A stretch of DNA of 59,026 nucleotides, the filler included. It is 6 parts of 6 records of this genome, joined end to end, with 100 filler letters (N's around TTAATTAATTAA, not from the genome) between each part and the next. Parts side by side here need not be neighbours in the genome. Positions count along the whole stretch, not along the records: positions 1 to 23,448 come from SRR31156797_5883; 5 more parts are not named here. One strand, written 5' to 3'. Shown one piece after another: positions 6,283 through 25,464 of this stretch (the first letter of the stretch is position 1; each line of letters begins with the position of its first letter). A program made the translations under genes and the position numbers. The notes under the pieces are model-generated. The model saw only the letters and a list, made by a program, of their open reading frames with translations. It did no database searches and was not told where the DNA came from.

Positions 6283-6313
6283 AACTTTTCTCCATGAAAG
6301 GCCGGGTGGGAGG

Positions 6314-6348
6314 AGGAGGGTGTCTGCGTTTATGCAGACACCCTTCCT
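6314..6348. terminator. GC-rich intergenic stem-loop between the rnfB fusion and pta (weak terminator or mRNA stabiliser)
   Basis: AGGAGGGTGTCTGC-gtttat-GCAGACACCCTTCCT inverted repeat, with no U-tail on the minus strand. Confidence 0.45.
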
Positions 6349-6418
6349 GAATCATGCACCGAGTAGGTCTTGGGGTGATAGGGTGTCATGATGTCCTCCA
6401 GAGCCAGGGTATGGTGTT

Positions 6419-8527
6419 CTACCTTTTGAATGCGTCGCCATTGAGGGATCGATCATCAAAGGTATTGTCTTTGTCGTAGCAAATCAGTCCGCACTGCAGG
6501 CATCGGTTGGATTCGGCAAGAGCCTCTTCCTGACTGAGTGCCCCTTCAACTTCATTGAATGAGCAGTTCCGGTCATCGCCATGGCAGAGATGCGGCATTA
6601 TGGCCCGATTTTGGCGTTCAACTTGGTCGATTTCTTTGAATAAGGTGTACGGAATCATTTCAGTCTGCGTGGTTTCCGGTATGGGGATGTCGCCTTGTTG
6701 CATGAAGTAATGCATGGAGCGGGCAGCCTTTCTCCCATCACCAATGGCCGAGATGACAAGATCTGGGCCGGTATAGACATCGCCAGCGGTGAAAACTCCC
6801 GGAATGATAGTTTCAAAGGTTTTTTCATCAGCCACGATGGTCTGCCAACGGGTGGTTTCGAATTGACAGTTTTTTTCATCACCATCTTCATAGAGACAGC
6901 TGAGGTCAGGTTTTTGTCCGATGGCAGGAATGATCAGGTCTGCGGACATAAGTGCTTCCGAACCTTCTTTTTTGATTGGACGACGTCTGCCTGAGTCATC
7001 AGGTTCGCCCAGTTCCATTTCGTAGTATTCAAGGTGTGTTGCCCTGTCGTTTTCGTCGCCGACGACACGGGCTGGAGCGGCCAGAAATTTGAAATCAACG
7101 CCTTCTTCTTCGGCGCCAATGATTTCTTCCATGTTGGCGGGCATTTCCGCTCTGGTGCGTCGATACATGAGTGTAACTTTCGCTCCCAGGCGGATACAGG
7201 TTCTGGCTGCGTCAATGGCGGTGTTTCCACCGCCGACAACGATGACGTGTTTGCCGACTTCCGGTTTTTGGCCCAAAGCATGAGCTGTGAGGAATTCGAT
7301 ACCGCCCATGACACCGTCAAGGTCTTCTCCTTCGGCGTACATGCCGCTGGCCTGCCATGCGCCGATACCAAGGAAGAATGTTTCGTATCCTTCTCCCTTG
7401 AGGGATTCGATGGTAAAATCCACTCCAAACTTGGTGTTGACCTTGGCTGTGACACCGAGATCCAAAATTCCCTGTATTTCCCAATCCAGATCAGCCTTGG
7501 GCAACCGGTATTCCGGGATACCGTATCTGATCTGTCCACCGAGTTTCGGCATGGCTTCAAATATAGTTGGGCTGTGTCCCAGTCTGCGGAGGAAGTAGGC
7601 ACAGGACAAACCGGCAGGTCCGCCACCGATGATAGCGACTTTTTTACCGGTGTCCTGGGCACATGGTATGGTCAGGTGTTTGCCGGAACGGAGTTCCCGA
7701 TCAGCAACAAATCGTTTGAGCATGTTGATGCCGACTGGATCGTCTACAAACTGTCTGCGACATTCGGTTTCACAGGGACGAGGACATACACGACCACAAG
7801 TGACAAGAAGAGGATTTCTTTCCTTGATGGTCATGACGGCGCCATCGAAGTCGCCTTCTTTTATTTGCTGAATATATTTGGGGATATTAATTTGTCCGGG
7901 ACATTTTTGTCGACACGGGGCCAGACAATCCGTTGTCTGGTTCAGGTGTAACAGGCGGGCTGACATACCGGAAACCGTGATGACGCCGCGCGGACAGGCA
8001 TCAACACAATTGCCACAGGCCTTACATTCTTCCGGGTCAATGACAGGGAGTCCGTCAGGGCTCATATGAATGGCATTAAAGGGACAAGCACGAACACAGG
8101 ACCCGAGGCCAAGACAGCCTTCGGGGCATGTTTTTGACCCGCCGTAAAGTTGGTGGGCGGCCCGGCAATCAAGAGCGCCTTCATAGTGAAAGCTGTTTTC
8201 TGCGCGAATGCCACCTGTGCAGTCCCGGATAGCGAGTTCTGGTTCACGTTCGATGACTTCCTGTCCCATGATACCTGCGACGACTTTGCTTGTATCAGCA
8301 TCGGCTACGATACAAACGGACGCCGGAGCTTTGCCTGCAACGATGGCCGCTGCTGCGCCTGAGCATCCCGGGAATCCGCAACCGCCACAATTGGCGCCGG
8401 GCAGATTATCTTCAATGAGGCTTATACGTGGGTCTTCTTTGACATAGAGCAGCTTTGAGGCAATACCCAGAATACCTGCCGCCCCAAGTCCGATGCCGAA
8501 AAGAGTCAATCCTGATGTCACTATCAT
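6419..8527 (-). CDS. rnfB: RnfB fused to a GltD/NfnB(SudA)-like FAD/NAD(P)H oxidoreductase domain (702 aa)
   Basis: N-terminal TM anchor, [14 protein letters not shown] and ferredoxin motifs, then APCRQKCP..CGRVCPRPCE..C, GGGPAG (FAD), GGGNTAID..YRR (NADP-type), TAGD; last gene of the rnf cluster. Confidence 0.9.
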   Translation of the reverse strand: MIVTSGLTLFGIGLGAAGILGIASKLLYVKEDPRISLIEDNLPGANCGGCGFPGCSGAAAAIVAGKAPASVCIVADADTSKVVAGIMGQEVIEREPELAIRDCTGGIRAENSFHYEGALDCRAAHQLYGGSKTCPEGCLGLGSCVRACPFNAIHMSPDGLPVIDPEECKACGNCVDACPRGVITVSGMSARLLHLNQTTDCLAPCRQKCPGQINIPKYIQQIKEGDFDGAVMTIKERNPLLVTCGRVCPRPCETECRRQFVDDPVGINMLKRFVADRELRSGKHLTIPCAQDTGKKVAIIGGGPAGLSCAYFLRRLGHSPTIFEAMPKLGGQIRYGIPEYRLPKADLDWEIQGILDLGVTAKVNTKFGVDFTIESLKGEGYETFFLGIGAWQASGMYAEGEDLDGVMGGIEFLTAHALGQKPEVGKHVIVVGGGNTAIDAARTCIRLGAKVTLMYRRTRAEMPANMEEIIGAEEEGVDFKFLAAPARVVGDENDRATHLEYYEMELGEPDDSGRRRPIKKEGSEALMSADLIIPAIGQKPDLSCLYEDGDEKNCQFETTRWQTIVADEKTFETIIPGVFTAGDVYTGPDLVISAIGDGRKAARSMHYFMQQGDIPIPETTQTEMIPYTLFKEIDQVERQNRAIMPHLCHGDDRNCSFNEVEGALSQEEALAESNRCLQCGLICYDKDNTFDDRSLNGDAFKR

Positions 8528-8562
8528 GTCAGTATTTCCTGTCTTTATTATTTGCGGCTTTT

Positions 8563-9138
8563 TTAGATCATGCCTTTGAATGCGAAGAATGCGAGCGACA
8601 TCAGACCGGCCATCACCAGTCCGATAGGTGTGCCGCGCATGGCGATTGGGAGCCTGCGTACTGCCAGTCGTTCACGAATTCCGGCCAGAAGAACAAGTGC
8701 GACCAGAAAACCCATGCCTGAAGCAAAAGCGAACATGACAGACTTTATCAGGCCGAATTCCTCGCGTTGACATATGAGGGCAATACCCATGACTGCACAG
8801 TTGGTCGTGATGAGGGGAAGAAAAATTCCCAGAGATTTATACAGTGGCGGGACCATTTTCTTGAGGAACATCTCAACAAACTGAACAAGTGATGCAATGA
8901 CCAAAATAAAGGCTAATGTTTGAAGGTAGCCCAGTCCGAAGGGGATGAGAACGTGCCGTTGTACCAGCCATGTAATGGCTGTCGCCATGACAGCGACGAA
9001 GACCACAGCTCCACCCATACCTATGGCAACACCGGATTCTTTGGAAGTTCCAATGAAAGGGCAGTTACCGAGATATTGTGCCAGTACGATGTTGTTGACG
9101 AACATCGCTCCTATGAAAAGAAGGAAGAATTCCTGCAT
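8563..9138 (-). CDS. rnfA: Rnf complex subunit A
   Basis: NNIVLAQYLGNCPFIG, VQFVEM and [12 protein letters not shown]; polytopic membrane protein. Confidence 0.95.
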   Translation of the reverse strand: MQEFFLLFIGAMFVNNIVLAQYLGNCPFIGTSKESGVAIGMGGAVVFVAVMATAITWLVQRHVLIPFGLGYLQTLAFILVIASLVQFVEMFLKKMVPPLYKSLGIFLPLITTNCAVMGIALICQREEFGLIKSVMFAFASGMGFLVALVLLAGIRERLAVRRLPIAMRGTPIGLVMAGLMSLAFFAFKGMI

Positions 9139-9152
9139 GATAGTATCCCTCG

Positions 9153-9845
9153 TTATGAACAGTTAGAAGCGCTGCCGCATCCGCCGCAGGAACCACAGTC
9201 GTGAGTGGGGGCTTCGACCGCTTTCAAGCCTTTGCGCCGCCGTTGAACATTTTCCACAAAGGTCATCAGGGCGAGCAGAACGCCAAGGCTGACAAAAGCT
9301 CCTGGTGCTTCGACCATGAAGCCAAAAGGTTCAAAACCTTGCCATGTGACATCCGTTCCGAAGAGTTGCCCCTTGCCGAGGACTTCACGCAATGCGCCGA
9401 GAAATGTCAGGGATATGCCGAAACCCATTCCCATGCCGAGTCCGTCAGCCGCAGACAGTAGGGGTGGGTTCTTGGAGGCAAAAGCTTCAGCTCGGCCAAG
9501 GATGATACAGTTGACCACGATGAGTGGGACAAAGATGCCAAGCTGTTGATAGAGCGGGTATGCAAAGGCCTGCATGAGCAGTTCAACGGCAACGACCAGT
9601 GAAGCCGAGATAGCGATAAAACAGGCAATTCTGACTTTGGCTGGAATGAGTTTTCTGACCAGTGAGACCAGAAGGTTGGAAAGGGTGAGGACAAAGACTA
9701 CAGCCATGCCCATACCCAGCCCATTATCTGCTGTGTTCGTGACTGCCAGCACTGGACAGAGCCCCAGTACCAGTTTGAACGGGGGGAGGTCCTTCCAGAG
9801 ACCCTTGGAGAATTCTTTCCATAACTTCTTCATTATATGCTCCAT
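9153..9845 (-). CDS. rnfE: Rnf complex subunit E (start may be the ATG at 9833)
   Basis: LGLCPVLAVT, PLIVVNCIILGRAEAFA and PGAF; Cys-rich C-terminal tail CGSCGGCG. Confidence 0.95.
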   Translation of the reverse strand: MEHIMKKLWKEFSKGLWKDLPPFKLVLGLCPVLAVTNTADNGLGMGMAVVFVLTLSNLLVSLVRKLIPAKVRIACFIAISASLVVAVELLMQAFAYPLYQQLGIFVPLIVVNCIILGRAEAFASKNPPLLSAADGLGMGMGFGISLTFLGALREVLGKGQLFGTDVTWQGFEPFGFMVEAPGAFVSLGVLLALMTFVENVQRRRKGLKAVEAPTHDCGSCGGCGSASNCS

Positions 9846-9869: not shown

Positions 9870-10445
9870 CTAGGACCAATCCTTGGCGAATTCGGATTTC
9901 AGTGAATTGAATATGACAATGGCATTTTGAACAGCGGAAACAGTTCCGGTGGAGGATATGGTTGCTCCGGCAACGGCATCAATGCTGCCGCCATTCTTTT
10001 TGAGGTTCATTGAATCAAGCGGATGCTCCTTGAATTGGGTGGTAAACCCATGAGAAGCGACGCGAGAACCCAACCCCGGTGTTTCTTTCATAGTTGTGAT
10101 GCCAATGCCGGACAACGTGTCGGATTTGATGTCAAATCCAACCATAACGCCGATATTACCGCCGTAACCTCTACCGGATGTCTCGAAGGCGACTGCGGTT
10201 AGTTCTCCGTTGTGGATCGCTGGAAAGACCGTTATTGTTTTACCGTCCACTTCGAATCTTTTTCGGTCCTTGATGGGGTTATTGTCATACTTGTGAAGGA
10301 CCGATTCGATGGCGGGAGCCTGAACAAAGGTCAGCACCTGTTCTTCAATAATAGGGGCGGTGGCTTGTTTAAGCGCTGCCAGTGTCACTCCCGATAATCC
10401 ACAGATCAGCGAGAGTACGATCATCATTTTGAGCATTTCTTTCAT
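9870..10445 (-). CDS. rnfG: Rnf complex subunit G
   Basis: N-terminal TM helix, GYGG, ETPGLG, flavinylation-like motif DAVAGATISS. Confidence 0.93.
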   Translation of the reverse strand: MKEMLKMMIVLSLICGLSGVTLAALKQATAPIIEEQVLTFVQAPAIESVLHKYDNNPIKDRKRFEVDGKTITVFPAIHNGELTAVAFETSGRGYGGNIGVMVGFDIKSDTLSGIGITTMKETPGLGSRVASHGFTTQFKEHPLDSMNLKKNGGSIDAVAGATISSTGTVSAVQNAIVIFNSLKSEFAKDWS

Positions 10446-10448
10446 GGG

Positions 10449-11399
10449 TTACCTCTTTCCGAAAGGTCTGGGGCGAATACGTTCCAAGACCGGCGTGAGC
10501 AGGTTGGCAAGCAGGATGGCAAAAGGCACTCCGTCAGGATAGATGCCATAGACTCGGATGATGACAATTATGACCCCGGTAATTATTCCGAAGAGAAGCA
10601 TGGGGATTTGTCTGTTAGGTGATGACGGGCCGTCGGTCGCCAGGAAAAAGGCGCCGAATAGCGTGGAACCAGTCAACAGATGGAGAGTTGGCGTGGCATA
10701 AATTGTGGGGTCAGCCATGTTGAAGAGACCCGCAGTAATAAGAACTCCTCCGATGACGCCGACCGGAATGATGGTGGATATATGTTTGCGAATGACGAGG
10801 AACAACGCGCCGACTACAACACCGGCGATTTGGGTTGCTCCTAGTCCACCGAGTTGTTTTCCGAGGAATAACGCACGGGAGTCCGTAATCATGACGGCAT
10901 CAAGACCGAAGTTTTTGAGTTGGGCCAAGGGGTACGTAAGATCGACATTGAGCATGGTTGCATCGATGTCCATGAATCCGGGCCAGGATATCCGACACAC
11001 GGCCCACCCTATGAGCGGTGCACAGAATGGACTGCCGCCGAGTCCGCCAAACATCATTTTACCCAGTATAATGGATGCGGCACTTCCTATGGCAACAAGC
11101 CACCAAGGGGCCGATGCCGGTAAAAGAAATGCGAAGCAAAGTCCGACGGTGAAAGCGTGGAAATCGCGCACTTGGGGTTTTTGATCCATGAACATGGCGC
11201 ACACAGCTTCTGTGAGGATAGCTGTTGCCACAGAAAGCGCCATGACGCGGAAAGCGGCCATGCCGTATGAAGTCATGGCCATAGCAGCCGCTGGTGTCAT
11301 AGCCAGAAGAATATTAACCATTCTTCCTTGAACAGTGATGCCACGATGTCGATGGGGTGGGACCGAGACGGTCAATGCAAATGGATTGAGTTGTTTCAC
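10449..11399 (-). CDS. rnfD: Rnf complex subunit D (GTG start)
   Basis: VPPH, GKMMFGGLG, GAFFLATD..SSP and IRVYGIYPDGVPFAILLAN motifs. Confidence 0.9.
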   Translation of the reverse strand: MKQLNPFALTVSVPPHRHRGITVQGRMVNILLAMTPAAAMAMTSYGMAAFRVMALSVATAILTEAVCAMFMDQKPQVRDFHAFTVGLCFAFLLPASAPWWLVAIGSAASIILGKMMFGGLGGSPFCAPLIGWAVCRISWPGFMDIDATMLNVDLTYPLAQLKNFGLDAVMITDSRALFLGKQLGGLGATQIAGVVVGALFLVIRKHISTIIPVGVIGGVLITAGLFNMADPTIYATPTLHLLTGSTLFGAFFLATDGPSSPNRQIPMLLFGIITGVIIVIIRVYGIYPDGVPFAILLANLLTPVLERIRPRPFGKR

Positions 11400-11401
11400 G
11401 G

Positions 11402-12502
11402 TTATTTCTCCTCTCCAGCCACATTTTTGGCTCGTTCAAGTTCGTTTTTTGCGAGCCGGATATACTGAAGCATGGGGCGTTGTGCGATACAGAAGAAGCC
11501 GCACAATCCACATTCAAAGCAGGCATCCACAGATTCATCGGCTGCTTTGTCGTACATGCCGAATTCCGCGTAGCTGGTGATCATGGCTGGATCGAGTCTG
11601 GCTGGGCAGTGACGAATGCATTCACCGCAACCAACACAAGGGGAATCCTGTGCAACCGGTGTGGGATTTTTGACTAAAGTGATGGCGGTGGTGTCGCGAG
11701 CCACCCCCTGCATGGGGCTGGCAGCGGCTGACCCGCGAAGAACACCACCGAGTACTATACGGTCTCTATCTTCGATGTTGTTGTCATTCTTGTTGATGAT
11801 TTCACCGACAGGTGTGCCAAGGAAAAAGATTTGGTTTTTTTTATCCACCGTGACCATGGTTTCCATGACAGGCAGGCCCGTTTCCATGATTCTTCCGATG
11901 TGAAAGACTGTTTCGAGCCCCACTACGAGCGTGTTGTCCGGGTTTTCCTTGCCGGTGACGGTCAAAGCAACCATGGGGTCCAATCCGGCAGGGTACTGTT
12001 CTGAGATTTCAGTGTATCGTGTGCCGTCCAGCAGGTTCGATCCATTGATCGCGGCTAAATAGGTGGCAGGAGGTGCATATATGGAAAGAAGAGCCTGTAT
12101 GCCCCGTTCAAGAGTTGTCTTGGCTGTAGACAGAAGTGTTGAGCGAGCAGAGAGGCCTTGTTCTTCATCTACACCATTTATGATTAATGTCTGAATACCC
12201 GAAGCTGTTTTGATGTCAGCCCCAAGCTCAATGAGTATTTTCAGAAGCTCTTGTCCTGCAATACCACTGAGCGAAGTGGGTTCGACTGTTTCGTCGCCTT
12301 TAGCTGTTATGCGAATTCGGTAAGGATCGACATGATCGATGGTTCCAGCTATCGGAGCGTGGATATCTCCAAGGCCAGAAACCGAGGTCGTGGCAATTCG
12401 TTCACCGCGTTTGACAATCTGACCACACGTAACGAGGGGACAGTGCCTTTTAAGCGTTGTTTCAGCCTGCGAAATGGCTGGAGGTGTATCGTGCTTATTC
12501 AT
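11402..12502 (-). CDS. rnfC: RnfC-like subunit, short (366 aa), with degenerate FMN/NADH-binding motifs
   Basis: RnfC N-terminal barrel (V.GQ.V.RGE.IA..IHAP.AGTI), two C-terminal [4Fe-4S] motifs CVGCGECIRHCP and CFECGLCGFFC, and its position in the operon. Confidence 0.8.
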   Translation of the reverse strand: MNKHDTPPAISQAETTLKRHCPLVTCGQIVKRGERIATTSVSGLGDIHAPIAGTIDHVDPYRIRITAKGDETVEPTSLSGIAGQELLKILIELGADIKTASGIQTLIINGVDEEQGLSARSTLLSTAKTTLERGIQALLSIYAPPATYLAAINGSNLLDGTRYTEISEQYPAGLDPMVALTVTGKENPDNTLVVGLETVFHIGRIMETGLPVMETMVTVDKKNQIFFLGTPVGEIINKNDNNIEDRDRIVLGGVLRGSAAASPMQGVARDTTAITLVKNPTPVAQDSPCVGCGECIRHCPARLDPAMITSYAEFGMYDKAADESVDACFECGLCGFFCIAQRPMLQYIRLAKNELERAKNVAGEEK

Positions 12503-12508
12503 GTTCGC

Positions 12509-13276
12509 CTACCTGCTGATGTGGCATTGGTTACAGTTGTCAGGTCCATACGGGCCAACCTCGTTCTCTTCGTGGCAGGACATGCACTGGTCGTGGAATG
12601 CATTCATGCGTGGAAGAACGAGTTCCCGTGTTTCGGATTCATGGCATTTGTTACAGGAGGTGAAGTCGCCCTCGTATTGAGTCATATCCACTTGAATATG
12701 GCAGGATTTACAGCTTGAGAGGCCTTTATCAAACATGTCTTCATGACAGTTTGCACAGCTTTGATGTCCAGCCAGACGCATGCTCAACAGATCTCCAGAG
12801 TCATCACCTTTGTGGCAGTTGGCACATTTTTGTGGCTCGGGTTCGATTTCTTTGCCGTGATGGCAGTCATAGCAATCGTCTGCGTAGTCTTTGTGTTCTT
12901 CATGATCGAAAATTACTGCTTCATATTCAGTGTGATGACAGCGAACACAGTATGATTCATTAGGAAATGAATCCATGTGGTTGTTTATGTATTCTTCATT
13001 AAATTCGTTGGGATGACATGAGCCGCAATCAAGCGCCTTGTTGTCCTCCATGGTCATTTCATCGGTGCCTTTTTCGTGGTGACACTGAACACAGTTGATT
13101 TGGTAGTCACGATGATGGACGAGGTGGGAAAAGATGACTTTTCCGCCATTGTTCTGGAATAGGATTCGTGCTGGCATCTGTGCTTTTTCACTGGTTTTGA
13201 CGTATCCAATTGCGGACGCTGCCAAGAGTAAAATCGCTGCAAGAATGACCGGAAGTATCTTCGAATTTGAACGCAT
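12509..13276 (-). CDS. dhcA: Periplasmic decaheme cytochrome c (cytochrome c3 family) associated with Rnf
   Basis: N-terminal signal/anchor and ten CxxCH motifs counted; directly upstream of rnfC, as in Desulfovibrio dhcA-rnf operons. Confidence 0.88.
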   Translation of the reverse strand: MRSNSKILPVILAAILLLAASAIGYVKTSEKAQMPARILFQNNGGKVIFSHLVHHRDYQINCVQCHHEKGTDEMTMEDNKALDCGSCHPNEFNEEYINNHMDSFPNESYCVRCHHTEYEAVIFDHEEHKDYADDCYDCHHGKEIEPEPQKCANCHKGDDSGDLLSMRLAGHQSCANCHEDMFDKGLSSCKSCHIQVDMTQYEGDFTSCNKCHESETRELVLPRMNAFHDQCMSCHEENEVGPYGPDNCNQCHISR

Positions 13277-13374: not shown

Positions 13375-14916
13375 TTATTTAGGCATGACAGCCCAATCCG
13401 GCACGGAGTGGAGATCGATTCCCCAGACAACGGGCAGGAGGTATACGACAAAGATCGTAATTAAGAGGGTTCCTATGATGTTTAACCATAGGCCTGCCTT
13501 GGCCATTTGTTTGATTGATATGCATCCGCTACCGAAGACGACTGCGTTGGGCGGCGTTGCTACGGGGAGCATGAATGCGAAGGAAGCGGCAACACATGCA
13601 CCTACGATAGTTGCATAGGGATGGACTCCCATTGCAATAGCGGCGCTACCCATGATCGGGACAAGGAGTGTTGCTGTGGCTGTATTGGAAGTAATTTCCG
13701 TTAGGAAGATGGTAATCAGTACAACTGCTCCGACGAACACCATGATGCTCGTTCCTTCAAGACCACCAAGCTGGGAGGCGATAAAAGTTGCCAAGCCGGT
13801 TTTGGCAAAGCCGTTGGCAATAGCCAGACCACCACCGAAAAGCAGGATTACATCCCAAGGAATTTTGACGGCGGTTTTCCAATCCAGAAGGAATTCACCT
13901 TTTTTGAAGTTGGTCGGAATGGCGAACAAGATTAAGGCGCCAAGGATACCGATTGTGGCATCGTGGATGTATCCGAAGTTCGGCATGATATCGAGAACGA
14001 AAGGAGCTTTTTTCAGGAAACCGCGGGCCAACCAGAATGTGGCGACAAAACACCCGACCACAACGATTTTCTTTTCTTCGGAAGACATGACGCCAAGCTT
14101 GCGAACTTCTTCATCGATGATTTCTTTACCACCAGCGAGTTTCATATTTCCCATGGGGAAAAGAAGCCTGGTGAGTACGACCCATGAGATGGCAAGCATG
14201 AGGACGGAAAGCGGTACACCAAACATCATCCATTGACCAAAACCGATTTCAACGCCGAACAATTTATCGATCATACCGACCATGATGGTGTTGGGGGGAG
14301 TACCGATAATGGTTGCAACGCCACCCATTGAGGCTGCGTAAGCAATACCAAGCATCAGACATTTACCGAAGTTTGATTCTGGACCGGTGGTTGCACATGC
14401 ACGCAGGGTTTTGGAGTCAAAACCTGTGGCCTGTTGGATGACGGCAAGCCCGATGGGGACCATCATCATAGTCGTCGCCGTATTGGAAACCCACATGGAC
14501 AGGAAGGCTGTGGCGATCATGAATCCAAGAATCATTCTGCCTGGACTGGTACCAACCATTCGAATGGTATGGACGGCAACCCGTTTGTGCAGGTTCCATC
14601 TTTCCATGGTGACTGCGAGGAAGAAACCACCCATGAACAGGTATATCAGATGGTTGGCATAGGGGGCAGTAGCAGCCTTTGATTTCATGATGCCGAGCAA
14701 TGGAAACAAGGCGATGGGCAAAAGGGATGTCGCCGGAATGGGAATCGCTTCCGTAATCCACCAGATTGCCATGAACACTGTTACTGCGGCGACCCGCCAA
14801 GCTTCAACCTTCATTCCCTCAGGGGCAGGAAGGAGAAGCATTAATGCAAAGACGATGGGGCCTAGAAAGAACCCTACCATCCTGCCTTTTCCGCTTTCCT
14901 CTGCTGCTGCACTCAT
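13375..14916 (-). CDS. DASS/SLC13 family Na+:dicarboxylate symporter
   Basis: WWITEAIP, MWVSNTAT and EITSNTAT (SNT motifs), IGTPPN, MLPVATPPNA; lies in a fumarate/malate cluster. Confidence 0.92.
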   Translation of the reverse strand: MSAAAEESGKGRMVGFFLGPIVFALMLLLPAPEGMKVEAWRVAAVTVFMAIWWITEAIPIPATSLLPIALFPLLGIMKSKAATAPYANHLIYLFMGGFFLAVTMERWNLHKRVAVHTIRMVGTSPGRMILGFMIATAFLSMWVSNTATTMMMVPIGLAVIQQATGFDSKTLRACATTGPESNFGKCLMLGIAYAASMGGVATIIGTPPNTIMVGMIDKLFGVEIGFGQWMMFGVPLSVLMLAISWVVLTRLLFPMGNMKLAGGKEIIDEEVRKLGVMSSEEKKIVVVGCFVATFWLARGFLKKAPFVLDIMPNFGYIHDATIGILGALILFAIPTNFKKGEFLLDWKTAVKIPWDVILLFGGGLAIANGFAKTGLATFIASQLGGLEGTSIMVFVGAVVLITIFLTEITSNTATATLLVPIMGSAAIAMGVHPYATIVGACVAASFAFMLPVATPPNAVVFGSGCISIKQMAKAGLWLNIIGTLLITIFVVYLLPVVWGIDLHSVPDWAVMPK

Positions 14917-16378: not shown

Positions 16379-16936
16379 TTATTTGAGGCCGGCAGCTTTG
16401 CGATCGGGGACGGCGTAGAGTTCTCCACCATGGGCGTCGTTGATGACGAGCAGGGGGAAGTCTGTGACTTTCATTTCACGAACGGCCTCCGGGCCGAGTT
16501 CGTCAAAGGCGATGACTGTTGATTTGGTGATGGAATTGGACAGAAGCGCTCCTGCGCCACCTGTCGCGCCGAAGTAAACGGCTGTGTGGTCCTGCATGGC
16601 CTGACGTGTTTCGTCATTTCGTTTACCTTTGCCGATGGTAGCCTTGAGGCCGAGGCTATAAAGACGCGGGGCATAGGAATCCATACGATAACTGGTTGTC
16701 GGACCGGCTGCGCCGATGGGGCGTCCCGGAGGGGCCGGGCTGGGACCAACATAGTAGATTGCAGCACCTTCAAGGGCGAAAGGGAGTTCCTTGCCTGCGT
16801 CCAGCAGATCCACAAGTTTTTTGTGGGCAGCATCGCGGGCGGAGTAGATGGTGCCAGAGAGGAATACGACATCGCCAGCCACAAGCTGTTTCATGTCTTC
16901 GTCTGTCAGCGGGGTATTCAGTTTATATTCAGCCAT
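16379..16936 (-). CDS. Fe-S hydro-lyase (class I fumarase) beta subunit
   Basis: ARDAAHK, YYVGP, GPTTSYRMD, IGKG and ELGPEA. Start re-assigned to the ATG at 16936, which overlaps the alpha-subunit stop (TAATG). Confidence 0.9.
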   Translation of the reverse strand: MAEYKLNTPLTDEDMKQLVAGDVVFLSGTIYSARDAAHKKLVDLLDAGKELPFALEGAAIYYVGPSPAPPGRPIGAAGPTTSYRMDSYAPRLYSLGLKATIGKGKRNDETRQAMQDHTAVYFGATGGAGALLSNSITKSTVIAFDELGPEAVREMKVTDFPLLVINDAHGGELYAVPDRKAAGLK

Positions 16937-17775
16937 TAGAGTACGACCTCCTCGTGCCGCTGGGAGTGACACTGGATGTTTACGGCCAAGGGGAGACTTG
17001 CCAGATGGCAGGGATCGACAGCCATTTTCACACTGAGAGCAGTGGTTTTTCCGCCGAGGCCCATGGGACCGATGCCGAGTTTGTTGATGGCATCTTCGAG
17101 TTCCTTTTCCTTGGCTGCGATATCCGGATCAGGATGAGTGTCATCCAGTCGGCGCATGAGGGACTTTTTGGCAATGATGGATGCATGTTCAAAGGTGCCG
17201 CCGATGCCGAGGCCTACAACGATCGGAGGGCAGGGGTTTGGACCGGCTTCAGCCACACGGTTGATGACAAATTCCTTGATACCTTCCCAGCCTTGTGCTG
17301 GTGCCAACATGGTGCAACGACTCATGTTCTCACTGCCGCCGCCTTTTGCCATATAGACAATTTTCAGCGTGTCACCGGGGACGAAATCAAAGTGAATGAT
17401 TGCGGGAGTGCCATCGCCTGTATTGGCCCGACTGAACGGGTCGCAAGCGGATTTTCGCAGAAAACCATCGGCATACCCTTTACGAACACCTTCGTTGATG
17501 ACTTCACGGAGATTGCCTCCGTCAATGCGAACGTCGTCGCCGACTTCAACAAAGAGGACGGCAAGGCCGCAATCCTGACAGAGGGGGAGTTTTGTACTTT
17601 TGGCAAGGTCTGCATTTTCCAGAAGTTGGCGCAGGACTTCCTTTGCGGAGTCACTGGTCTCTTTGGCCATCGCCTGTTCGAGTTTGGTGCGGACATCGCT
17701 CGGCAGCTCTGTATTTGCCTTGATGCACATGTTTGCCACGGCATCGACTATTTCGCTGGTTTTGATTGTGCGCAT
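16936..17775 (-). CDS. Fe-S hydro-lyase (class I fumarase) alpha subunit
   Basis: PLCQDCG, KGGGSEN, PNPCPP, GIGPMGLGG, CHLASLP and QCHS motifs. Confidence 0.9.
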   Translation of the reverse strand: MRTIKTSEIVDAVANMCIKANTELPSDVRTKLEQAMAKETSDSAKEVLRQLLENADLAKSTKLPLCQDCGLAVLFVEVGDDVRIDGGNLREVINEGVRKGYADGFLRKSACDPFSRANTGDGTPAIIHFDFVPGDTLKIVYMAKGGGSENMSRCTMLAPAQGWEGIKEFVINRVAEAGPNPCPPIVVGLGIGGTFEHASIIAKKSLMRRLDDTHPDPDIAAKEKELEDAINKLGIGPMGLGGKTTALSVKMAVDPCHLASLPLAVNIQCHSQRHEEVVL

Positions 17776-17777
17776 GA

Positions 17778-18518
17778 TTATTTCTTCCTGAAGATTTCTT
17801 TGATTGCTGTGATGCCCATCTTGCGGCGGAGGAAACCGAGTTGATCTTGCAGCGGCAGCCCTTTAGGGCAAACGTCTTCACAGGCCAGGAGGCCCATGCA
17901 GCCGAATATCCCGTTATCATTGCCGATGATTTCAAAGTATTGATCGTCAGAGCGTTCATCTCTGGGGTCAACGACAAATCGGGCAATACGGTTTAGGGCC
18001 GCTGCCCCCATGAAATCATCCCGCAGGCGGGCGGTTCCACAGGCAGAGACACAACAGCCGCATTCGATGCAGCGTTCGAGTTCATAGATTTGGTTGGCTA
18101 CTTTGTCGTCCATGCGCTCTTCTTCCTTGGTCGGATCGAATGTCTTGGACGTGTGAACCCATGATTCAGTTTTGTCGTACATTTCTCTGAACCAGACACC
18201 CGTATCGACGGAGAGGTCTCCGACGAGTTTGAAGACGGGCAGGGGGTGCAATGTAATCTTGGTGGGTTGATCTTTTGTTTTGGTCTGACATGCCAGCCCC
18301 GGACGACCATTGATGACCATGGCGCACGCACCACAGATGCCCGCACGACAACAGAAGTCGAAGATGAGGCTTGGGTCCTGTTCTTCACGTAATCTATTCA
18401 GAGCAATGAACAGGGTCATGTTCGGGGTTTCATCAAGGGTGTAGGTCTGCATGTGCGGGACCTCTCCCTTTTTTTCTGGATTATACCGGAATATTTCGAA
18501 TTTTATTTCTCTACCCAT
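17778..18518 (-). CDS. frdB: Fumarate reductase iron-sulfur subunit
   Basis: CRAGICGAC [2Fe-2S], CIECGCCVSAC and CMGLLACEDVCP. Confidence 0.95.
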   Translation of the reverse strand: MGREIKFEIFRYNPEKKGEVPHMQTYTLDETPNMTLFIALNRLREEQDPSLIFDFCCRAGICGACAMVINGRPGLACQTKTKDQPTKITLHPLPVFKLVGDLSVDTGVWFREMYDKTESWVHTSKTFDPTKEEERMDDKVANQIYELERCIECGCCVSACGTARLRDDFMGAAALNRIARFVVDPRDERSDDQYFEIIGNDNGIFGCMGLLACEDVCPKGLPLQDQLGFLRRKMGITAIKEIFRKK

Positions 18519-18545
18519 GATACGTTCCTTTTTTGATCCGGGTTA

Positions 18546-20423
18546 TTACTTCTTGCCAATTTTTGTGACAGGGCTTTTGACGGTGCGATCCTTCACGTAT
18601 TTTTCGTCTGCGGGAATAATCGTTCCACCGCCGTATCCGCGGTCACCCGGGGGCAGTTCGAAAACAGGTGTGGTGTCTTCGTAGCTGAGTTCAGGCATGT
18701 CGGCTTTTTCTGGCCAGTATGCCAGCGTACGATTGAGCCAGTCCTGATCATTGCGTTCGGGGTAGTCTTCGCGGTTGTGAGAACCTCGGGATTCAGTACG
18801 CACCATTGCTGCCTGGGCAATGCACAGGGCGAGTTTGACCTGTCCTTGAATCTTGAGTGCGGCGGCCAATTCGTGGTTGGGACCTGCACCGTCAGAAACA
18901 AGGCTGACTTTTTTAGATTTTTCGAGAGTCTTTTGTAGTGTTTCAACGCATTCTTCCAAGCCGTCCTGATTACGGAAGACAAAGCAGCCTTTCATCAGGG
19001 CTTCCTGCATTTCATTACGCACGTCGTAGACATTCAATTTGCCGTTACGACCGTGGATAAGATCGTGAATGCGTTTTTCCTGTTTTTTGACTTCTGCGTT
19101 GATGGTTTTGGTATCGAACTTTGTTTCATATCCCTGAAGGAATTCAACAATTTTAGTTCCGATAATACCACCGGCCACGACAGTTTCCGCCAGAGAGTTT
19201 CCGCCCAAACGGTTGAAGCCGTGCATATCCCAACAAGCTGCCTCACCTGCGGAGTAAAGACCCTTGAGACCATAGACCGCGCCGTCCTTATTGGTACGGA
19301 TTCCAGCCATGGTATAATGCTGTGTTGGACGAACTGGGATGAGTTCCGTGCGCGGGTCAACACCAAGGAAGTGATGACAAATTTCATCTACTTCACGGAG
19401 CTTGGTGGAGATATGTTTGTCTCCGAGGTGTCGGATATCGAGCCAGAGATGCTCGCCATAAGGGCTTTTTACGCCTTTGCCCTCACGCATGTGATGGGTC
19501 ATCCAGCGAGAAACAACATCACGAGAAGCGAGTTCGGCCTTATCCGGCTCATAGATGTGCATGAAGCGTTCTTCGTTGCAGTCGAGCAGGGTTCCACCGT
19601 CACCACGACAGCCTTCGGTCACGAGGATGTCCGTGGGAACAATTCCGGTGGGGTGGAACTGAATGGATTCAGGGTTGCCGATGGGAACGACGCCTGTGTC
19701 GTGGGCTATAATGTGTCCGCCGCCATCACAAATGACCGCGTTGGTCGTAGCTTTATAGATGCGGCCGAAACCGCCGGTACAGATGGCGGTCGCCTTGGCG
19801 AGATAGGTTTCAAGCTGACCGGTCCGCAGGCAACGAACAACAGCGCCCATGCAGGTTTCGCCGTCTTGAATCAGGGCAATGGCTTCTTTTTTATCGAAGA
19901 CATCAATGCCAAGTTCGGCACAACGGTTGTCCATGGTACACATAACTGCGTGGCCAGTACCATCAGACGTGAAGCAGGTGCGCCATTTGGCAGTACCACC
20001 GAATGAACGAGCTGTAATCAACCCTTCATTTTCTTTCTTTTCAAATTTTTCAAATTTTTCTCCACCCTTGAAGAAAAATGATTTGCCGGGAATGACGCGG
20101 TTCCACGGTACACCCCAGTGTGCGAGGCGGCGCATTTCGATAGGGGCATTGTCTGCAAAAAGTCGAGCAACTTCCTGATCGCACCCCCAGTCAGAACCTT
20201 TGACTGTATCAATGAAATGGACGTCAGGCCCATCGCCTTCACCTTTTGCAGAATTGCCGAGTGCAGCTTGCATTCCGCCCTGTGCGGCAGAAGAGTGAGA
20301 ACGTCTTGCCGGAACAATGGACAAGCAGGTAGCTTTAAAACCGCTTTGTGCAGCCTCACAAGCGACACGCTCTCCAGCCAGGCCAGCACCAATAACGAGC
20401 AGATCTGAATAGTACGTTTGCAT
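18546..20423 (-). CDS. frdA: Fumarate reductase flavoprotein subunit
   Basis: GAGLAG, RSHSSAAQGG (covalent FAD His), QFHPT, TEGCRGDGG, ELASRD and HGFNRLGGNSL. Confidence 0.96.
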   Translation of the reverse strand: MQTYYSDLLVIGAGLAGERVACEAAQSGFKATCLSIVPARRSHSSAAQGGMQAALGNSAKGEGDGPDVHFIDTVKGSDWGCDQEVARLFADNAPIEMRRLAHWGVPWNRVIPGKSFFFKGGEKFEKFEKKENEGLITARSFGGTAKWRTCFTSDGTGHAVMCTMDNRCAELGIDVFDKKEAIALIQDGETCMGAVVRCLRTGQLETYLAKATAICTGGFGRIYKATTNAVICDGGGHIIAHDTGVVPIGNPESIQFHPTGIVPTDILVTEGCRGDGGTLLDCNEERFMHIYEPDKAELASRDVVSRWMTHHMREGKGVKSPYGEHLWLDIRHLGDKHISTKLREVDEICHHFLGVDPRTELIPVRPTQHYTMAGIRTNKDGAVYGLKGLYSAGEAACWDMHGFNRLGGNSLAETVVAGGIIGTKIVEFLQGYETKFDTKTINAEVKKQEKRIHDLIHGRNGKLNVYDVRNEMQEALMKGCFVFRNQDGLEECVETLQKTLEKSKKVSLVSDGAGPNHELAAALKIQGQVKLALCIAQAAMVRTESRGSHNREDYPERNDQDWLNRTLAYWPEKADMPELSYEDTTPVFELPPGDRGYGGGTIIPADEKYVKDRTVKSPVTKIGKK

Positions 20424-20433
20424 TGAATGATCC

Positions 20434-22755: not shown

Positions 22756-22757
22756 GG

Positions 22758-23448: not shown

Positions 23449-23548
23449 NNNNNNNNNNNNNNNNNNNNNNNNNNNNNNNNNNNNNNNNNNNNTTAATTAA
23501 TTAANNNNNNNNNNNNNNNNNNNNNNNNNNNNNNNNNNNNNNNNNNNN
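23449..23548. other. Artificial contig spacer
   Basis: 44 N + TTAATTAATTAA (stops in all six frames) + 44 N. Confidence 0.98.
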
Positions 23549-25410: not shown

Positions 25411-25464
25411 CAAATCTCCTCACATCGATTTTCCCGCCGGGCAGGCGGGAACAGTGTTTTTTTA

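What the first reader, a model, noticed from the sequence alone, without database searches (positions are those of the whole stretch)
6419..8527. RnfB fused to an NfnB/GltD-like NADP(H) flavoprotein: a candidate NADPH-linked or electron-bifurcating Rnf
Seen: about the first 190 aa are RnfB (anchor and Fe-S motifs). The remaining ~500 aa form a full GltD/NfnB-type module with two Fe-S motif regions, GGGPAG, and GGGNTAID followed by YRR. The ordinary RnfB at 56676-57500 in this window is only 274 aa. Established: GxGxxA plus basic residues indicates NADP(H) preference in this family, and NfnB carries the bifurcating FAD of Nfn. RnfB is normally the ferredoxin input. Inference: pyridine-nucleotide chemistry has moved to the RnfB side, matching the co-encoded MaeB-type malic enzyme as an NADPH source.
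Basis: partly seen in the sequence, partly recalled or inferred. Interest (0 to 1): 0.8.

Follow-up and report, generated by a model that had tools for sequence, protein, structure and literature searches.

The report
Known large RnfB with NADPH module
The gene is real: a membrane electron-pump subunit (RnfB) fused to an NADPH-binding flavoprotein, a design already described as "Rnf2" in marine sulfate-reducing bacteria, here sitting inside a fumarate/malate-utilisation gene cluster; it shows no sign of being electron-bifurcating and its reaction has never been measured.

Summary
Window 6419-8527 (minus strand) is one uninterrupted 702-aa gene. Residues 1-190 are the RnfB core and residues 198-689 are a complete GltD-type FAD/NAD(P)H module with two [4Fe-4S] sites. 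Contigs of independent runs and over 100 full-length homologues keep the frame.

The architecture is not new. Papers on Desulfobacteraceae describe a "Tol2-type/Rnf2" complex with a ~700-aa RnfB carrying a nucleotide site and an RnfC that has lost its NADH domain. This scan reached the same verdict on eight other genomes. The same applies here: RnfC (366 aa) lacks the 14-residue glycine loop of canonical RnfC.

The module is closest to the NADPH-entry domains of StnC and NfnA of Bfu-type NfnABC, whose FAD does not bifurcate. It has Lys271 where NfnB has Glu126 and Asn465 where NfnB has Arg333, and no nfnA gene sits upstream. NADPH linkage is therefore likely, and NfnB-type bifurcation is not supported.

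Specific to this lineage:
- The operon starts with a decahaem cytochrome c.
- It lies in a cluster conserved in 7 of 7 genomes examined: frdCAB-fumAB-malic enzyme-DASS-dhcA-rnfCDGEA-rnfB/gltD, followed by some or all of pta-ackA-PFOR in 6 of the 7.

This fits NADPH from malic enzyme feeding the pump. The electron acceptor remains open.

The parts
6419..8527 (-). rnfB-gltD fusion gene (702 aa, P0001), the 'large RnfB' of an Rnf2-type complex
7958..8527 (-). RnfB core, residues 1-190: hydrophobic N-terminal anchor, PF04060 [4Fe-4S] domain (Cys47, 50, 55, 72) and a 2x[4Fe-4S] ferredoxin dicluster (Cys134-178)
   Evidence: Pfam; solved RnfB chains 9eri_B and 7zc6_B align to 8-186 and 7-192; cysteine positions; the anchor was read by eye and no TM predictor was run
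6461..7936 (-). GltD-type NADPH/FAD/2x[4Fe-4S] module, residues 198-689 (FAD GGGPAG 301-306; NAD(P)H GGGNTAID 432-439 plus YRR 455-457; Lys271; Asn465)
   Evidence: NCBIfam PRK12771 match to 198-689; PDB alignments; positions
6476..6580 (-). C-terminal segment, residues 650-684, with RCLQCG (Cys676, Cys679): the circularly displaced counterpart of the N-terminal CxxC (Cys42/Cys45) of NfnB, as in StnC and NfnA of Bfu-type Nfn
   Evidence: this segment aligns to residues 14-46 of NfnB chains (4ylf_B, 5jca_L) and to the post-flavodoxin-fold part of 9bov_A, 9n5u_A and 8oh5_C; Fer4_20 lacks its first 26 model positions at the N-terminal site
8563..9138 (-). rnfA
   Evidence: TIGR01943, 252.8 bits, above cut-off
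9153..9845 (-). rnfE
   Evidence: NF009070, 280.8 bits, above cut-off
9870..10445 (-). rnfG of the DVU2794 type
   Evidence: NF045876, 300.2 bits, cut-off 205
10449..11399 (-). rnfD
   Evidence: TIGR01946, 211.6 bits, above cut-off
11402..12502 (-). degenerate rnfC (366 aa, P0122): keeps the two [4Fe-4S] motifs but has lost the glycine-rich FMN/NAD(H) loop
   Evidence: solved RnfC chains align only to 165-356; no Complex1_51K or SLBB match at E<=1; 14-residue deletion in the alignment with canonical RnfC
12509..13276 (-). dhcA-like decahaem cytochrome c (255 aa, 10 CxxCH by my count, N-terminal signal or anchor)
13375..14916 (-). DASS-family anion:sodium symporter (probable C4-dicarboxylate uptake)
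   Evidence: TIGR00785, 291.8 bits
15033..16352 (-). malic enzyme, 439 aa, catalytic part only (no PTA-like domain)
16379..17775 (-). class I fumarate hydratase, beta (16379-16972) and alpha (16936-17775) subunits
   Evidence: NF005310 and NF004885, both above cut-off
17778..21084 (-). fumarate reductase frdB (17778-18518), frdA (18546-20423) and frdC (20434-21084)
   Evidence: NF010071 and NF006383 above cut-off; Sdh_cyt
21409..23426 (-). sigma-54 response regulator (21409-22755) and histidine kinase core (22758-23426) at the head of the cluster
   Evidence: conserved in L051, L053, L055 and L057
1..6282 (-). pta (4162-6282), ackA (2902-4161) and pyruvate:ferredoxin oxidoreductase (1-2898, runs off the window) downstream of the fusion gene

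Best explanation
Identity. This is the large RnfB subunit of an Rnf2-type (Desulfobacula toluolica Tol2-type) complex in a Pseudodesulfovibrio-like sulfate reducer.

Proposed mechanism.
- The membrane-anchored RnfB iron-sulfur core carries, in one polypeptide, a non-bifurcating NADPH:FAD module with two [4Fe-4S] clusters, of the kind that serves as NADPH entry port in StnC and in NfnA of Bfu-type NfnABC.
- NADPH, here most plausibly made by the co-encoded malic enzyme during fumarate/malate use, gives a hydride to the FAD.
- Electrons then pass singly through the two module clusters and the three RnfB clusters into RnfA/E and on to the periplasmic FMN of RnfG. In canonical Rnf this direction drives Na+/H+ export.
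- Electrons cannot end on NAD+ at RnfC, because RnfC has lost its FMN/NAD(H) loop.
- I commit to the decahaem cytochrome c DhcA and the periplasmic cytochrome pool as the main outlet, feeding menaquinone and then the co-encoded fumarate reductase or sulfate reduction. A second, unidentified partner would act at the still cluster-bearing RnfC.
- The wiring parallels Na+-NQR, where NADH is oxidised at the RnfB position (NqrF) and the RnfC homologue (NqrA) is cofactor-free.

What is shown and what is inferred.
- Shown: gene, domains, residues, synteny, distribution.
- Inferred: NADPH specificity, direction, ion coupling, acceptor.

My odds.
- Rnf2 identity: about 0.9.
- NADPH input without bifurcation: about 0.65.
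- Cytochrome c as main outlet: about 0.35.
For: Identity and input module:
- Domain order and motifs.
- The best solved matches are 9bov_A (433.7 bits, residues 186-684), 9n5u_A (414.4) and 8oh5_C StnC (378.2). NfnB chains score 304.6 and 289.5, and GltD 224. 9bov and 9n5u are NfnA of Bfu-type NfnABC by the search listing.
- PMC10482914 (passages) shows that StnC FAD takes electrons from NADPH, does not bifurcate, and that its proximal cluster is ligated by K170. K170 aligns with Lys271 here.
- YRR and SGRRRP are conserved.

RnfC:
- No Complex1_51K match, against 173-179 bits in two canonical RnfC controls.
- 14-residue loop deletion.
- All eight Fe-S cysteines are invariant in alignment A1.

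Context:
- frdCAB-fumAB-ME-DASS-dhcA-rnfCDGEA-rnfB/gltD is present in 7 of 7 genomes from 3 genera. Downstream, 4 of the 7 showed pta, ackA and PFOR, 2 showed two of the three, and 1 showed none.
- In D. alaskensis G20 the malate/fumarate genes instead neighbour NfnAB-2. There the malic enzyme is said to yield NADPH, and Rnf and Qrc are needed on malate and fumarate (PMC4215793 passages).
- A multihaem cytochrome c gene sits directly upstream of rnfC in 7 of 9 further fused operons. A DhcA match lies beside rnfC in 9 of the 10 unfused family operons examined; L032 gave none.

Geometry:
- The RnfB/NqrF versus RnfC/NqrA positions are taken from PMC9588780 (passages).

Prior description:
- PMC5109826.
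Against: - No activity has been measured for any Rnf2. PMC5109826 says the mode of action 'awaits experimental verification'.
- NADPH versus NADH rests on homology only. PfNfnI-B Arg253 is Ser394 here, and PMC5109826 speaks of 'NAD+-binding sites'.
- In G20 (small RnfB) dhcA mutants had no fitness defect where rnf mutants did (PMC4215793; PMC4841214). This argues against the cytochrome being the obligatory outlet.
- The conserved Fe-S cysteines of RnfC suggest electrons still travel to RnfC, so a cytoplasmic or quinone acceptor may be the main one.
- Two of nine other fused operons showed no cytochrome gene (L040, L041).
- Whether ferredoxin still docks on the shortened RnfB core is unknown.
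- The malic enzyme's cofactor preference was not tested.
Confidence: 0.5

Rival explanations
1. NQR-like NADPH:menaquinone oxidoreductase. Electrons from NADPH run RnfB -> RnfA/E -> RnfG -> RnfD and leave to menaquinone at RnfD/RnfC, as ubiquinone does at NqrB/NqrA. They then go directly to the co-encoded menaquinol:fumarate reductase. DhcA would be accessory.
For: - The wiring matches NQR: the nucleotide site sits at the RnfB/NqrF position and the RnfC/NqrA homologue is degenerate (PMC9588780 passages).
- Weak NQRA_2nd Pfam matches occur in two such RnfC proteins (L029 and L037, E about 1e-3).
- frdCAB lies in the same conserved cluster.
- dhcA is dispensable in G20.
Against: - No quinone site can be tested with these tools.
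- RnfC keeps two [4Fe-4S] sites, which NqrA lacks.
- The cytochrome gene is retained in nearly every operon seen.
- Qrc, a cytochrome c3:menaquinone reductase, is needed on malate and fumarate in G20, which fits the cytochrome route.
Confidence: 0.15
2. The complex runs mainly in reverse. Electrons from periplasmic H2 or formate oxidation enter from the cytochrome c pool via DhcA and RnfG. The Na+/H+ gradient then drives them back through RnfA/E and RnfB to reduce NADP+ for biosynthesis.
For: - Rnf is reversible in other organisms (abstracts of PMC11889175 and PMC12174285, listing).
- rnf mutants of G20 fail on H2 and formate.
- Two further paralogous fused operons in the same genus lack any catabolic neighbours (L008, L010, L026, L046-L048).
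Against: - This particular operon is embedded between an NADPH-producing malic enzyme and pta-ackA-PFOR in all genomes examined. That points to NADPH oxidation.
- The G20 data concern the small-RnfB type.
Confidence: 0.15
3. Membrane-tethered, non-pumping ferredoxin:NADP+ oxidoreductase. Ferredoxin reduced by the co-encoded PFOR docks on the RnfB clusters and electrons go straight to the fused FAD and NADP+ (or the reverse), bypassing the membrane part.
For: - Stand-alone Fer4_20 + Pyr_redox_2 proteins are active NADPH-linked Fnor enzymes, and even StnC alone shows weak Fd:NADP+ activity (PMC12221290 passages).
- Soluble 600-aa versions without the anchor and without rnf neighbours exist (L049, L050).
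- PFOR lies in the cluster.
Against: - The gene follows rnfCDGEA in every Desulfovibrionaceae locus fetched and in 7 of the 9 other-family loci fetched (L037-L041, L043, L045; L039 is cut inside rnfE by the contig end). L042 and L044 had no rnf genes in the flanks held.
- The N-terminal anchor and PF04060 domain that contact RnfA/E are conserved.
- Both malic enzyme and PFOR would make reduced carriers here, so a mere Fd/NADP exchange gives no electron sink.
Confidence: 0.1
4. One reading: the fused FAD is an NfnB-like bifurcating or confurcating flavin that splits NADPH electrons between the Rnf chain and ferredoxin.
For: - The fold family contains the bifurcating NfnB.
- Arg341 (NfnB Arg201) is conserved.
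Against: - Lys271 instead of the Glu ligand, Asn465 instead of Arg333, no nfnA partner, and only one evident cluster path out of the FAD.
- The closest solved relatives use this domain as a plain NADPH port, and the arginine alone is not sufficient: StnC R239 does not bond N5.
Confidence: 0.04

Closest known systems
Rnf2 / 'Desulfobacula toluolica Tol2-type' Rnf complex of Desulfobacteraceae (PMC5109826 passages; PMC11887813 passages; the original report, Woehlbrand et al. 2016 Proteomics, pmid 26792001, was seen only as a citation)
   Same: - RnfB of about 700 aa carrying a nucleotide-binding module in addition to the RnfB Fe-S domains.
- RnfC without the NADH-oxidoreductase and SLBB domains.
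- Gene order rnfCDGEA-rnfB.
- Full-length matches of 39-58% identity lie in many families of the phylum. One of them (L037, 55% identity) has named relatives in Desulfonema, Desulfococcaceae and Desulfobacteraceae.
   Different: - This one is from Desulfovibrionaceae. PMC11887813 assigns that family the ordinary Rnf1, and PMC11434368 read the same gene there as 'loss of rnfB'.
- It has a decahaem DhcA rather than the 4-6-haem cytochromes seen upstream of the other-family operons.
- It is embedded in a fumarate/malate catabolic cluster.
StnC of Sporomusa ovata StnABC (8oh5_C) and NfnA of Bfu-type NfnABC (9bov_A, 9n5u_A)
   Same: - GltD-like NADPH/FAD domain with two [4Fe-4S] clusters.
- Lys at the proximal-cluster ligand position.
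- First CxxC displaced behind the flavoprotein fold.
- 'dC..pC' motif.
- Scores of 378-434 bits over residues 186-684.
   Different: - Those proteins continue into a NuoG/FdhF-like domain and hand electrons to a soluble HydBC-like bifurcating module.
- Here the module is fused behind a membrane-anchored RnfB and there are no StnAB/BfuBC genes nearby.
- StnC Cys114 is Ile215 here.
NfnB (large subunit of NfnAB; 5jca_L, 4ylf_B)
   Same: - Fer4_20 + Pyr_redox_2 fold.
- FAD and NADP(H) motifs.
- Arg201 equivalent (Arg341).
- Scores of 290-305 bits.
   Different: - Glu126 is Lys271 here and Arg333 is Asn465.
- The N-terminal CxxC is moved to the C-terminus.
- There is no nfnA.
- TIGR01316 scores 369.7 bits, below its cut-off of 471.75.
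Desulfovibrio dhcA-rnfCDGEAB(F) operon (D. alaskensis G20, D. vulgaris type; PMC4841214, PMC4215793)
   Same: - Decahaem cytochrome gene first.
- Same gene order.
- DVU2794-type RnfG.
- Same degenerate RnfC: 10 of 10 small-RnfB operons examined lack the glycine loop.
   Different: - There RnfB is 273-339 aa in 9 of the 10 operons (for the tenth, L036, the ORF rule returned 464 aa and it was left out). In those 9 it ends in an ordinary ferredoxin-type dicluster instead of the NADPH module.
- In G20 the NADPH from malic enzyme is thought to be handled by a separate NfnAB-2.
Na+-NQR
   Same: - Nucleotide oxidation by a flavoprotein at the RnfB position (NqrF).
- A degenerate RnfC homologue (NqrA).
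- A shared RnfADEG/NqrEBDC core (PMC9588780 passages).
   Different: - NqrF is unrelated to RnfB and to GltD.
- NqrA has no Fe-S clusters, whereas this RnfC keeps two.
- The acceptor of NQR is a quinone. The acceptor here is unknown.

Membership tests
RnfB (Rnf complex subunit B) | N-terminal membrane anchor followed by the PF04060 Cx2Cx4C...C [4Fe-4S] domain | tested here: met
   PF04060 matches residues 42-73 at 44.3 bits (cut-off 23). Solved RnfB chains align from residue 7/8. Residues 1-25 are hydrophobic by eye; no TM predictor was run.
RnfB (Rnf complex subunit B) | ferredoxin-type 2x[4Fe-4S] domain after the PF04060 domain | tested here: met
   Fer4 scores 37.2 bits (cut-off 21.1) and Fer4_7 matches 138-182. 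Eight cysteines lie between 134 and 178.
RnfB (Rnf complex subunit B) | score above the curated NCBIfam cut-off of an RnfB model | tested here: not met
   NF005503 scores 174.1 against 252, and TIGR01944 scores 60.2 against 68.7. The core is shorter than the models' RnfB and lacks their last ferredoxin domain.
RnfB (Rnf complex subunit B) | encoded in an rnf operon next to rnfA | tested here: met
   rnfCDGEA lies directly upstream, with a 35-base spacer. The same holds in all 13 fused loci that have enough flank.
Rnf2 / Tol2-type Rnf | RnfB of about 700 aa with an added NAD(P)-binding module | tested here: met
   702 aa. Pyr_redox_2 matches 295-598 and there are two Rossmann motifs. The feature is defined in PMC5109826.
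Rnf2 / Tol2-type Rnf | RnfC lacking the NADH-oxidoreductase (Complex1_51K) and SLBB domains | tested here: met
   No match at E<=1. The controls L022 and L023 give 179 and 173 bits for Complex1_51K and 43 and 48 bits for SLBB. The loop deletion is seen.
Rnf2 / Tol2-type Rnf | orthology to the Desulfobacula toluolica / Desulfococcus multivorans Rnf2 proteins themselves | tested here: inconclusive
   No named Tol2 sequence could be fetched. The evidence is indirect: 55% identity over the full length to L037, whose closest named relatives are Desulfonema, Desulfococcaceae and Desulfobacteraceae proteins. In the RnfD+E+A tree the fused operons are not one clade.
NfnB (bifurcating subunit of NfnAB) | glutamate ligand of the proximal [4Fe-4S] cluster (PfNfnI-B Glu126) | tested here: not met
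   Lys271 aligns there, as does K170 of StnC.
NfnB (bifurcating subunit of NfnAB) | conserved Arg333 next to the FAD | tested here: not met
   Asn465 is at that position. The criterion comes from PMC12221290 section 14.
NfnB (bifurcating subunit of NfnAB) | nfnA gene directly upstream | tested here: not met
   The upstream gene is rnfA. No NfnA-like gene lies among the cluster genes 1-23426 that were scanned. The rest of the window was not scanned for it.
NfnB (bifurcating subunit of NfnAB) | extended N-terminus carrying the first CxxC (Cys42/Cys45) | tested here: not met
   The CxxC lies at 676-679, behind the flavoprotein fold.
StnC / NfnA(Bfu) NADPH-entry subunits | GltD-like domain with a Lys cluster ligand and a displaced CxxC | tested here: met
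StnC / NfnA(Bfu) NADPH-entry subunits | NuoG/FdhF-like domains and partner HydBC-like subunits | tested here: not met
   The protein ends at residue 702 and alignments stop at 684 of chains 963-1178 residues long. No such genes lie among the cluster genes scanned.
NADPH (rather than NADH) specificity | basic residues that bind the 2'-phosphate (PfNfnI-B Arg325 and Arg382, with Arg253 at the adenine) | tested here: inconclusive
   The Arg325 equivalent (Arg457 in YRR) and the Arg382 equivalent (first R of SGRRRP) are present. Arg253 is Ser394. The residue list is from PMC12221290 section 5. Specificity itself needs an assay.

The most novel reading that the evidence does not exclude
In marine Desulfovibrionaceae this Rnf2-type complex is the dedicated NADPH dehydrogenase of a fumarate/malate dismutation supra-operon. 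It would be an ion-pumping NADPH:cytochrome c (or NADPH:menaquinone) oxidoreductase, convergent with Na+-NQR, doing in one machine what G20 does with NfnAB-2 plus Rnf. As a corollary, every dhcA-type Rnf examined in the family lacks the RnfC nucleotide loop, including small-RnfB forms such as those named from Bilophila wadsworthia and Desulfovibrio porci. So the 'ferredoxin:NAD+ oxidoreductase' assignment of Desulfovibrio Rnf would be wrong.
Probability: 0.3. Interest if true: 0.6.

Novelty: new member of a known kind. Interest (0 to 1): 0.3.

Why it matters
Rnf2 is reported as part of the core genome of Desulfobacteraceae and as abundantly and constitutively made (PMC11887813). I find full-length copies in about 89 of 401 Desulfovibrionaceae genomes and about 49 of 401 genomes sampled across the phylum (hand counts). 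No one has measured what it does.

If it is an NADPH-driven ion pump with a non-NAD acceptor, energy budgets of marine sulfate reducers need a new entry point for NADPH. It would also offer a living parallel to the step by which Rnf gave rise to Na+-NQR.

This window adds a concrete physiological handle. The operon is locked into a fumarate/malate cluster next to an NADPH-forming malic enzyme and a fumarate reductase. Growth on fumarate or malate is therefore the obvious condition for assays and knock-outs.

Tried and rejected
- Own assembly. It is not held (error), so I worked from G001, which has a 99% identical protein.
- A wrong fetch. My first fetch for the third rnf cluster (L025) was the wrong place. 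That cluster's RnfB was then not found in G001 (best match was the fused gene at 42% identity), nor in any of 42 genomes of the genus at E<=1e-60. Its RnfC could therefore not be examined.
- Genomes without Rnf. Five Desulfovibrionaceae genomes chosen as 'unfused' controls had no RnfC match at all (0 of 5). I replaced them with ten operons located through RnfG.
- Expression. No RNA holder is listed for the gene.
- Literature with nothing relevant:
  - 'RnfB + glutamate synthase + Desulfovibrio' gave 1 unrelated paper.
  - 'RnfB + NfnB' gave 5 papers, none on a fusion.
  - The 2025 RNF/NQR review has 0 occurrences of sulfate, Desulfo, NADPH, cytochrome c or fused.
  - 'Rnf + fumarate reductase + malic enzyme + Desulfovibrio' gave 5 papers, none by title on this cluster. 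I read passages of only one of them, PMC2702500, which does not mention a large RnfB.
- Small RnfB as a truncated large RnfB. The alignment shows an ordinary CxxCxxCxxxCP ferredoxin domain there, so this idea is not supported.
- Order of events. An RnfD+E+A FastTree (32 operons, 1057 columns, 2 outgroups) puts other-family fused operons basal and small-RnfB operons nested. However, L063, L040 and L041 fall oddly and no clade test was run. I make no claim on gain versus loss.
- Not run. Structure prediction, fold search and complex prediction return no cofactor geometry, and the closest folds are already clear from sequence. The search of protein representatives and the atlas were not needed.
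- Closed supplements. The Supplementary Text and fig. S18 of PMC11887813, which compare Rnf1 and Rnf2, were not seen. They may already cover points I list as noticed.

Full report
**1. The observation**

The stretch 6419-8527 holds a single ORF on the minus strand: 702 aa with an ATG start. The plus strand is closed by stops and the minus-strand translation is open (P0001).

Pfam finds the following:
- the RnfB-specific PF04060 Fe-S domain at residues 42-73;
- a ferredoxin dicluster at 135-184;
- Fer4_20 at 201-280;
- Pyr_redox_2 at 295-598.

NCBIfam matches RnfB models over residues 1-261 and GltD-type models over 198-689. PRK12771 scores 486.7 bits, just under its cut-off of 516.

The comparator RnfB at 56676-57500 is a 274-aa ORF.

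The fusion is not an assembly artefact.
- 118 of the 120 best database homologues are 690-716 aa long. The other two are fragments.
- Contigs from other runs cover the gene without gaps. X5 and X6 span 6300-8700, and X2 spans 6300-8284.
- The only indels fall in the rnfA-rnfB spacer.
- The listed substitutions create no stop and are mostly synonymous, for example 29 substitutions and 5 amino-acid changes in X6.

**2. The surroundings**

All genes from 23426 down to 1 lie on the minus strand, in this order:
- a histidine-kinase core and a sigma-54 response regulator;
- frdCAB;
- a two-subunit class I fumarase;
- a 439-aa malic enzyme;
- a DASS transporter;
- a decahaem cytochrome c (10 CxxCH by my count);
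- rnfC, D, G, E, A;
- the fused rnfB;
- pta, ackA and pyruvate:ferredoxin oxidoreductase.

RnfG is of the DVU2794 type, scoring 300 bits against a cut-off of 205.

The order frdCAB-fumAB-ME-DASS-dhcA-rnfCDGEA-rnfB/gltD recurs in 7 of 7 genomes that I fetched with long flanks, from three genera. Downstream, four (G400, G350, G278, G238) showed pta, ackA and PFOR. G193 showed ackA and PFOR, G194 showed pta and PFOR, and G050 showed none.

Named contigs from Pseudodesulfovibrio and 'Desulfovibrio caledoniensis' show the ME...PFOR part of this order. Salidesulfovibrio brasiliensis shows rnf...ackA on a shorter contig.

**3. RnfC has lost its nucleotide site**

The operon's RnfC has only 366 aa.
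- Solved RnfC chains align only to its C-terminal half.
- Pfam finds neither Complex1_51K nor SLBB even at E<=1.
- Two canonical RnfC proteins used as controls give 173-179 bits for Complex1_51K.

Alignment shows a clean 14-residue deletion of the loop V-G-[LM]-G-G-A-[GT]-F-P-[TA]-H-V-K-L, and the following N-G-A-E-C-E-P-Y-L motif is replaced. The eight Fe-S cysteines are kept.

The same loss is seen in:
- every fused operon examined, namely the six (window, L001, L005, L008, L010, L026) and nine more from other paralogue classes and other families;
- 10 of 10 Desulfovibrionaceae operons that have an ordinary small RnfB;
- RnfC proteins named from Bilophila wadsworthia and Desulfovibrio porci.

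The RnfC loss is therefore not specific to the fusion.

**4. What kind of GltD module it is**

By sequence the module is closest to 9bov_A (433.7 bits), 9n5u_A (414.4) and 8oh5_C (378.2). It is less close to NfnB (304.6 and 289.5) and GltD (224).

8oh5_C is StnC. 9bov and 9n5u belong to papers on Bfu-type NfnABC (listing). In those enzymes this domain is the NADPH entry port, and bifurcation happens elsewhere.

[quoted passage not shown] It also states that its proximal cluster is ligated by K170, where NfnB has a glutamate.

From the printed alignments and positions:
- Lys271 aligns with K170 of StnC and Glu126 of NfnB.
- Asn465 aligns with Arg333 of NfnB.
- Arg341 aligns with Arg201 of NfnB. 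This arginine is conserved in both kinds and so does not discriminate.

PMC12221290 (sections 5 and 14) gives three discriminators of true NfnB: a long N-terminus with the first CxxC, Arg333, and an upstream nfnA. None is met here.

The C-terminal stretch 650-684 (RCLQCG) aligns with the N-terminal residues 14-46 of NfnB. The 'extra' C-terminal cysteines are therefore the displaced first CxxC of the ordinary two-cluster domain and not a third cluster. This also explains why Fer4_20 matches only from model position 27.

The NADP(H)-contacting arginines Arg325 and Arg382 are conserved, and Arg253 is Ser394.

Conclusion: the module is NADPH-linked by homology, and nothing supports NfnB-like bifurcation.

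**5. Prior knowledge**

[quoted passage not shown] The paper finds both types in Desulfococcus multivorans, with the Rnf2 subunits detected in membranes.
- PMC11887813 (passages) places Rnf2 in the Desulfobacteraceae core genome and calls it abundantly and constitutively formed. It attributes Rnf1 to Desulfovibrionaceae.
[quoted passage not shown] My domain analysis shows this is the same fused gene, misread as a loss.
- Earlier notes of this scan on eight other genomes reached the same 'known Rnf2' verdict. I had found the papers independently.

**6. Distribution**

In 401 genomes sampled from the family:
- 397 have some match, which is expected because GltD-like proteins are common.
- Rows with a best E-value of 1e-180 or lower, which in the listed places correspond to query coverage of about 1-690 in open frames of about 700 aa, number about 89 in 21 of 72 genera by my hand count. 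This includes 28 of 28 in the window's genus and 26 of 26 in a second genus.
- Only two candidates per genome were scored, so paralogue counts are lower bounds.

Three paralogue classes are visible, at 76-99%, 57-64% and 43-48% identity, and each follows its own dhcA-like gene and rnfCDGEA.

The DVU2794-type RnfG occurs in 235 of 401 genomes. Roughly 145 genomes therefore carry the small-RnfB form.

Across the phylum, about 49 of 401 sampled genomes have a full-length match, at 39-58% identity outside the window's own family (hand count, and three of these carry one in-frame stop).

Of nine such loci from other families:
- Seven have rnf genes directly upstream of the fused gene (L037, L038, L039, L040, L041, L043, L045). 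L039 is cut by its contig end inside rnfE.
- L042 and L044 show no rnf genes in the flanks held.
- Four of the six whose RnfC I examined have a 4-6-haem cytochrome gene upstream of rnfC (L037, L038, L043, L045; not L040 or L041).

**7. Mechanism**

Canonical Rnf passes electrons from RnfB through RnfA/E to RnfG-FMN outside the membrane, then to RnfD and RnfC-FMN, and finally to NAD+. In NQR the NADH site sits instead at the RnfB position, and NqrA is cofactor-free (PMC9588780 passages).

With NADPH entering at RnfB, flow towards RnfG is the ion-exporting direction. The acceptor must therefore be more positive than NADPH. This rules out ferredoxin at RnfC as acceptor by thermodynamic reasoning (inference).

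Candidate acceptors are the co-encoded multihaem cytochrome, menaquinone as in NQR, or an unknown cytoplasmic partner of the RnfC clusters.
- I favour the cytochrome because its gene almost always accompanies the operon.
- Against this, dhcA mutants of G20 show no defect where rnf mutants do, and RnfC keeps its clusters.

The cluster context gives a coherent pathway:
- fumarate or malate is taken up by the DASS transporter;
- fumarase interconverts fumarate and malate;
- malic enzyme yields pyruvate plus NADPH (as stated for the G20 enzyme in PMC4215793);
- PFOR, Pta and AckA yield acetate and ATP;
- fumarate reductase acts as the menaquinol sink.

In G20 the corresponding genes neighbour NfnAB-2, which is proposed to pass NADPH electrons on to ferredoxin and so to Rnf. 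Here the NADPH port is built into Rnf itself.

**8. Verdict**

This is a new lineage and context for a known but biochemically untested kind of complex. Interest is modest. The more surprising by-product is that all dhcA-type RnfC proteins of Desulfovibrionaceae that I examined lack the nucleotide loop.

Noticed in passing
L027-L036 (rnfC of ten small-RnfB dhcA-rnf operons); P0251, P0332, P0303, P0346: RnfC lacks the glycine-rich FMN/NAD(H) loop in 10 of 10 Desulfovibrionaceae operons that have an ordinary small RnfB. In the six of these scanned, Complex1_51K scores 17-22 bits in five and gives no match in L033, against 173-179 bits in the controls. The same loss is seen in RnfC named from Bilophila wadsworthia and Desulfovibrio porci. 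This sits badly with the usual 'ferredoxin:NAD+ oxidoreductase' label for Desulfovibrio Rnf. PMC4841214 reports that vesicle Fd:NAD+ assays were unsuccessful.
   Followed up: partly
window 56676-59026 (minus strand): Third, clostridial-type rnf cluster end: rnfE (58281-), rnfA (57493-58284; 263 aa, with an insertion relative to the 190-position model) and rnfB (274 aa). Its RnfB was not found in the 99%-identical relative G001 nor in any of 42 genomes of the genus, so it looks like strain-specific accessory DNA. Its rnfC lies outside the window.
   Followed up: partly
L049 8931-10688; L050 4867-6627: Versions of the protein about 600 aa long that start at about residue 95. They have no membrane anchor and no PF04060 domain, only the dicluster plus the GltD module, and they have no rnf genes beside them. 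Five genomes of two families show this form. It is possibly a soluble NADPH:ferredoxin-type enzyme related to the ancestor of the fusion.
   Followed up: no
L042 9551-11530; L044 5017-6993: Full-length large-RnfB homologues (54-58% identity) with no rnfA/E/G/D/C match in the 16 kb fetched around them.
   Followed up: no
L013 2557-5239; G389:C1:743254-745143: Broken copies. In the Salidesulfovibrio brasiliensis draft both rnfA and the fused rnfB match as two pieces in different frames. In G389 the match carries 2 TGA and 1 TAA. These could be sequencing errors or decay; this was not examined.
   Followed up: no
window 8525: In run X2 the contig has T for C at this position, which turns the ATG start of the fused gene into ATA (M1I). 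The true start in that strain may lie elsewhere.
   Followed up: no
L026 (G001:C1:1580000-1594000); L046-L048: The genus carries up to three paralogous dhcA-like/rnfCDGEA/large-rnfB operons. RnfG matches reach 3-4 per genome. Class 2 and class 3 operons have no catabolic neighbours, and class 3 has a 5-haem cytochrome of about 160 aa instead of the decahaem one.
   Followed up: partly
window 22758-23426: The histidine kinase at the head of the cluster is only 222 aa (HisKA + HATPase_c) and no sensor domain was detected. A TamA/TamB-like pair lies upstream at 23497-29547.
   Followed up: no
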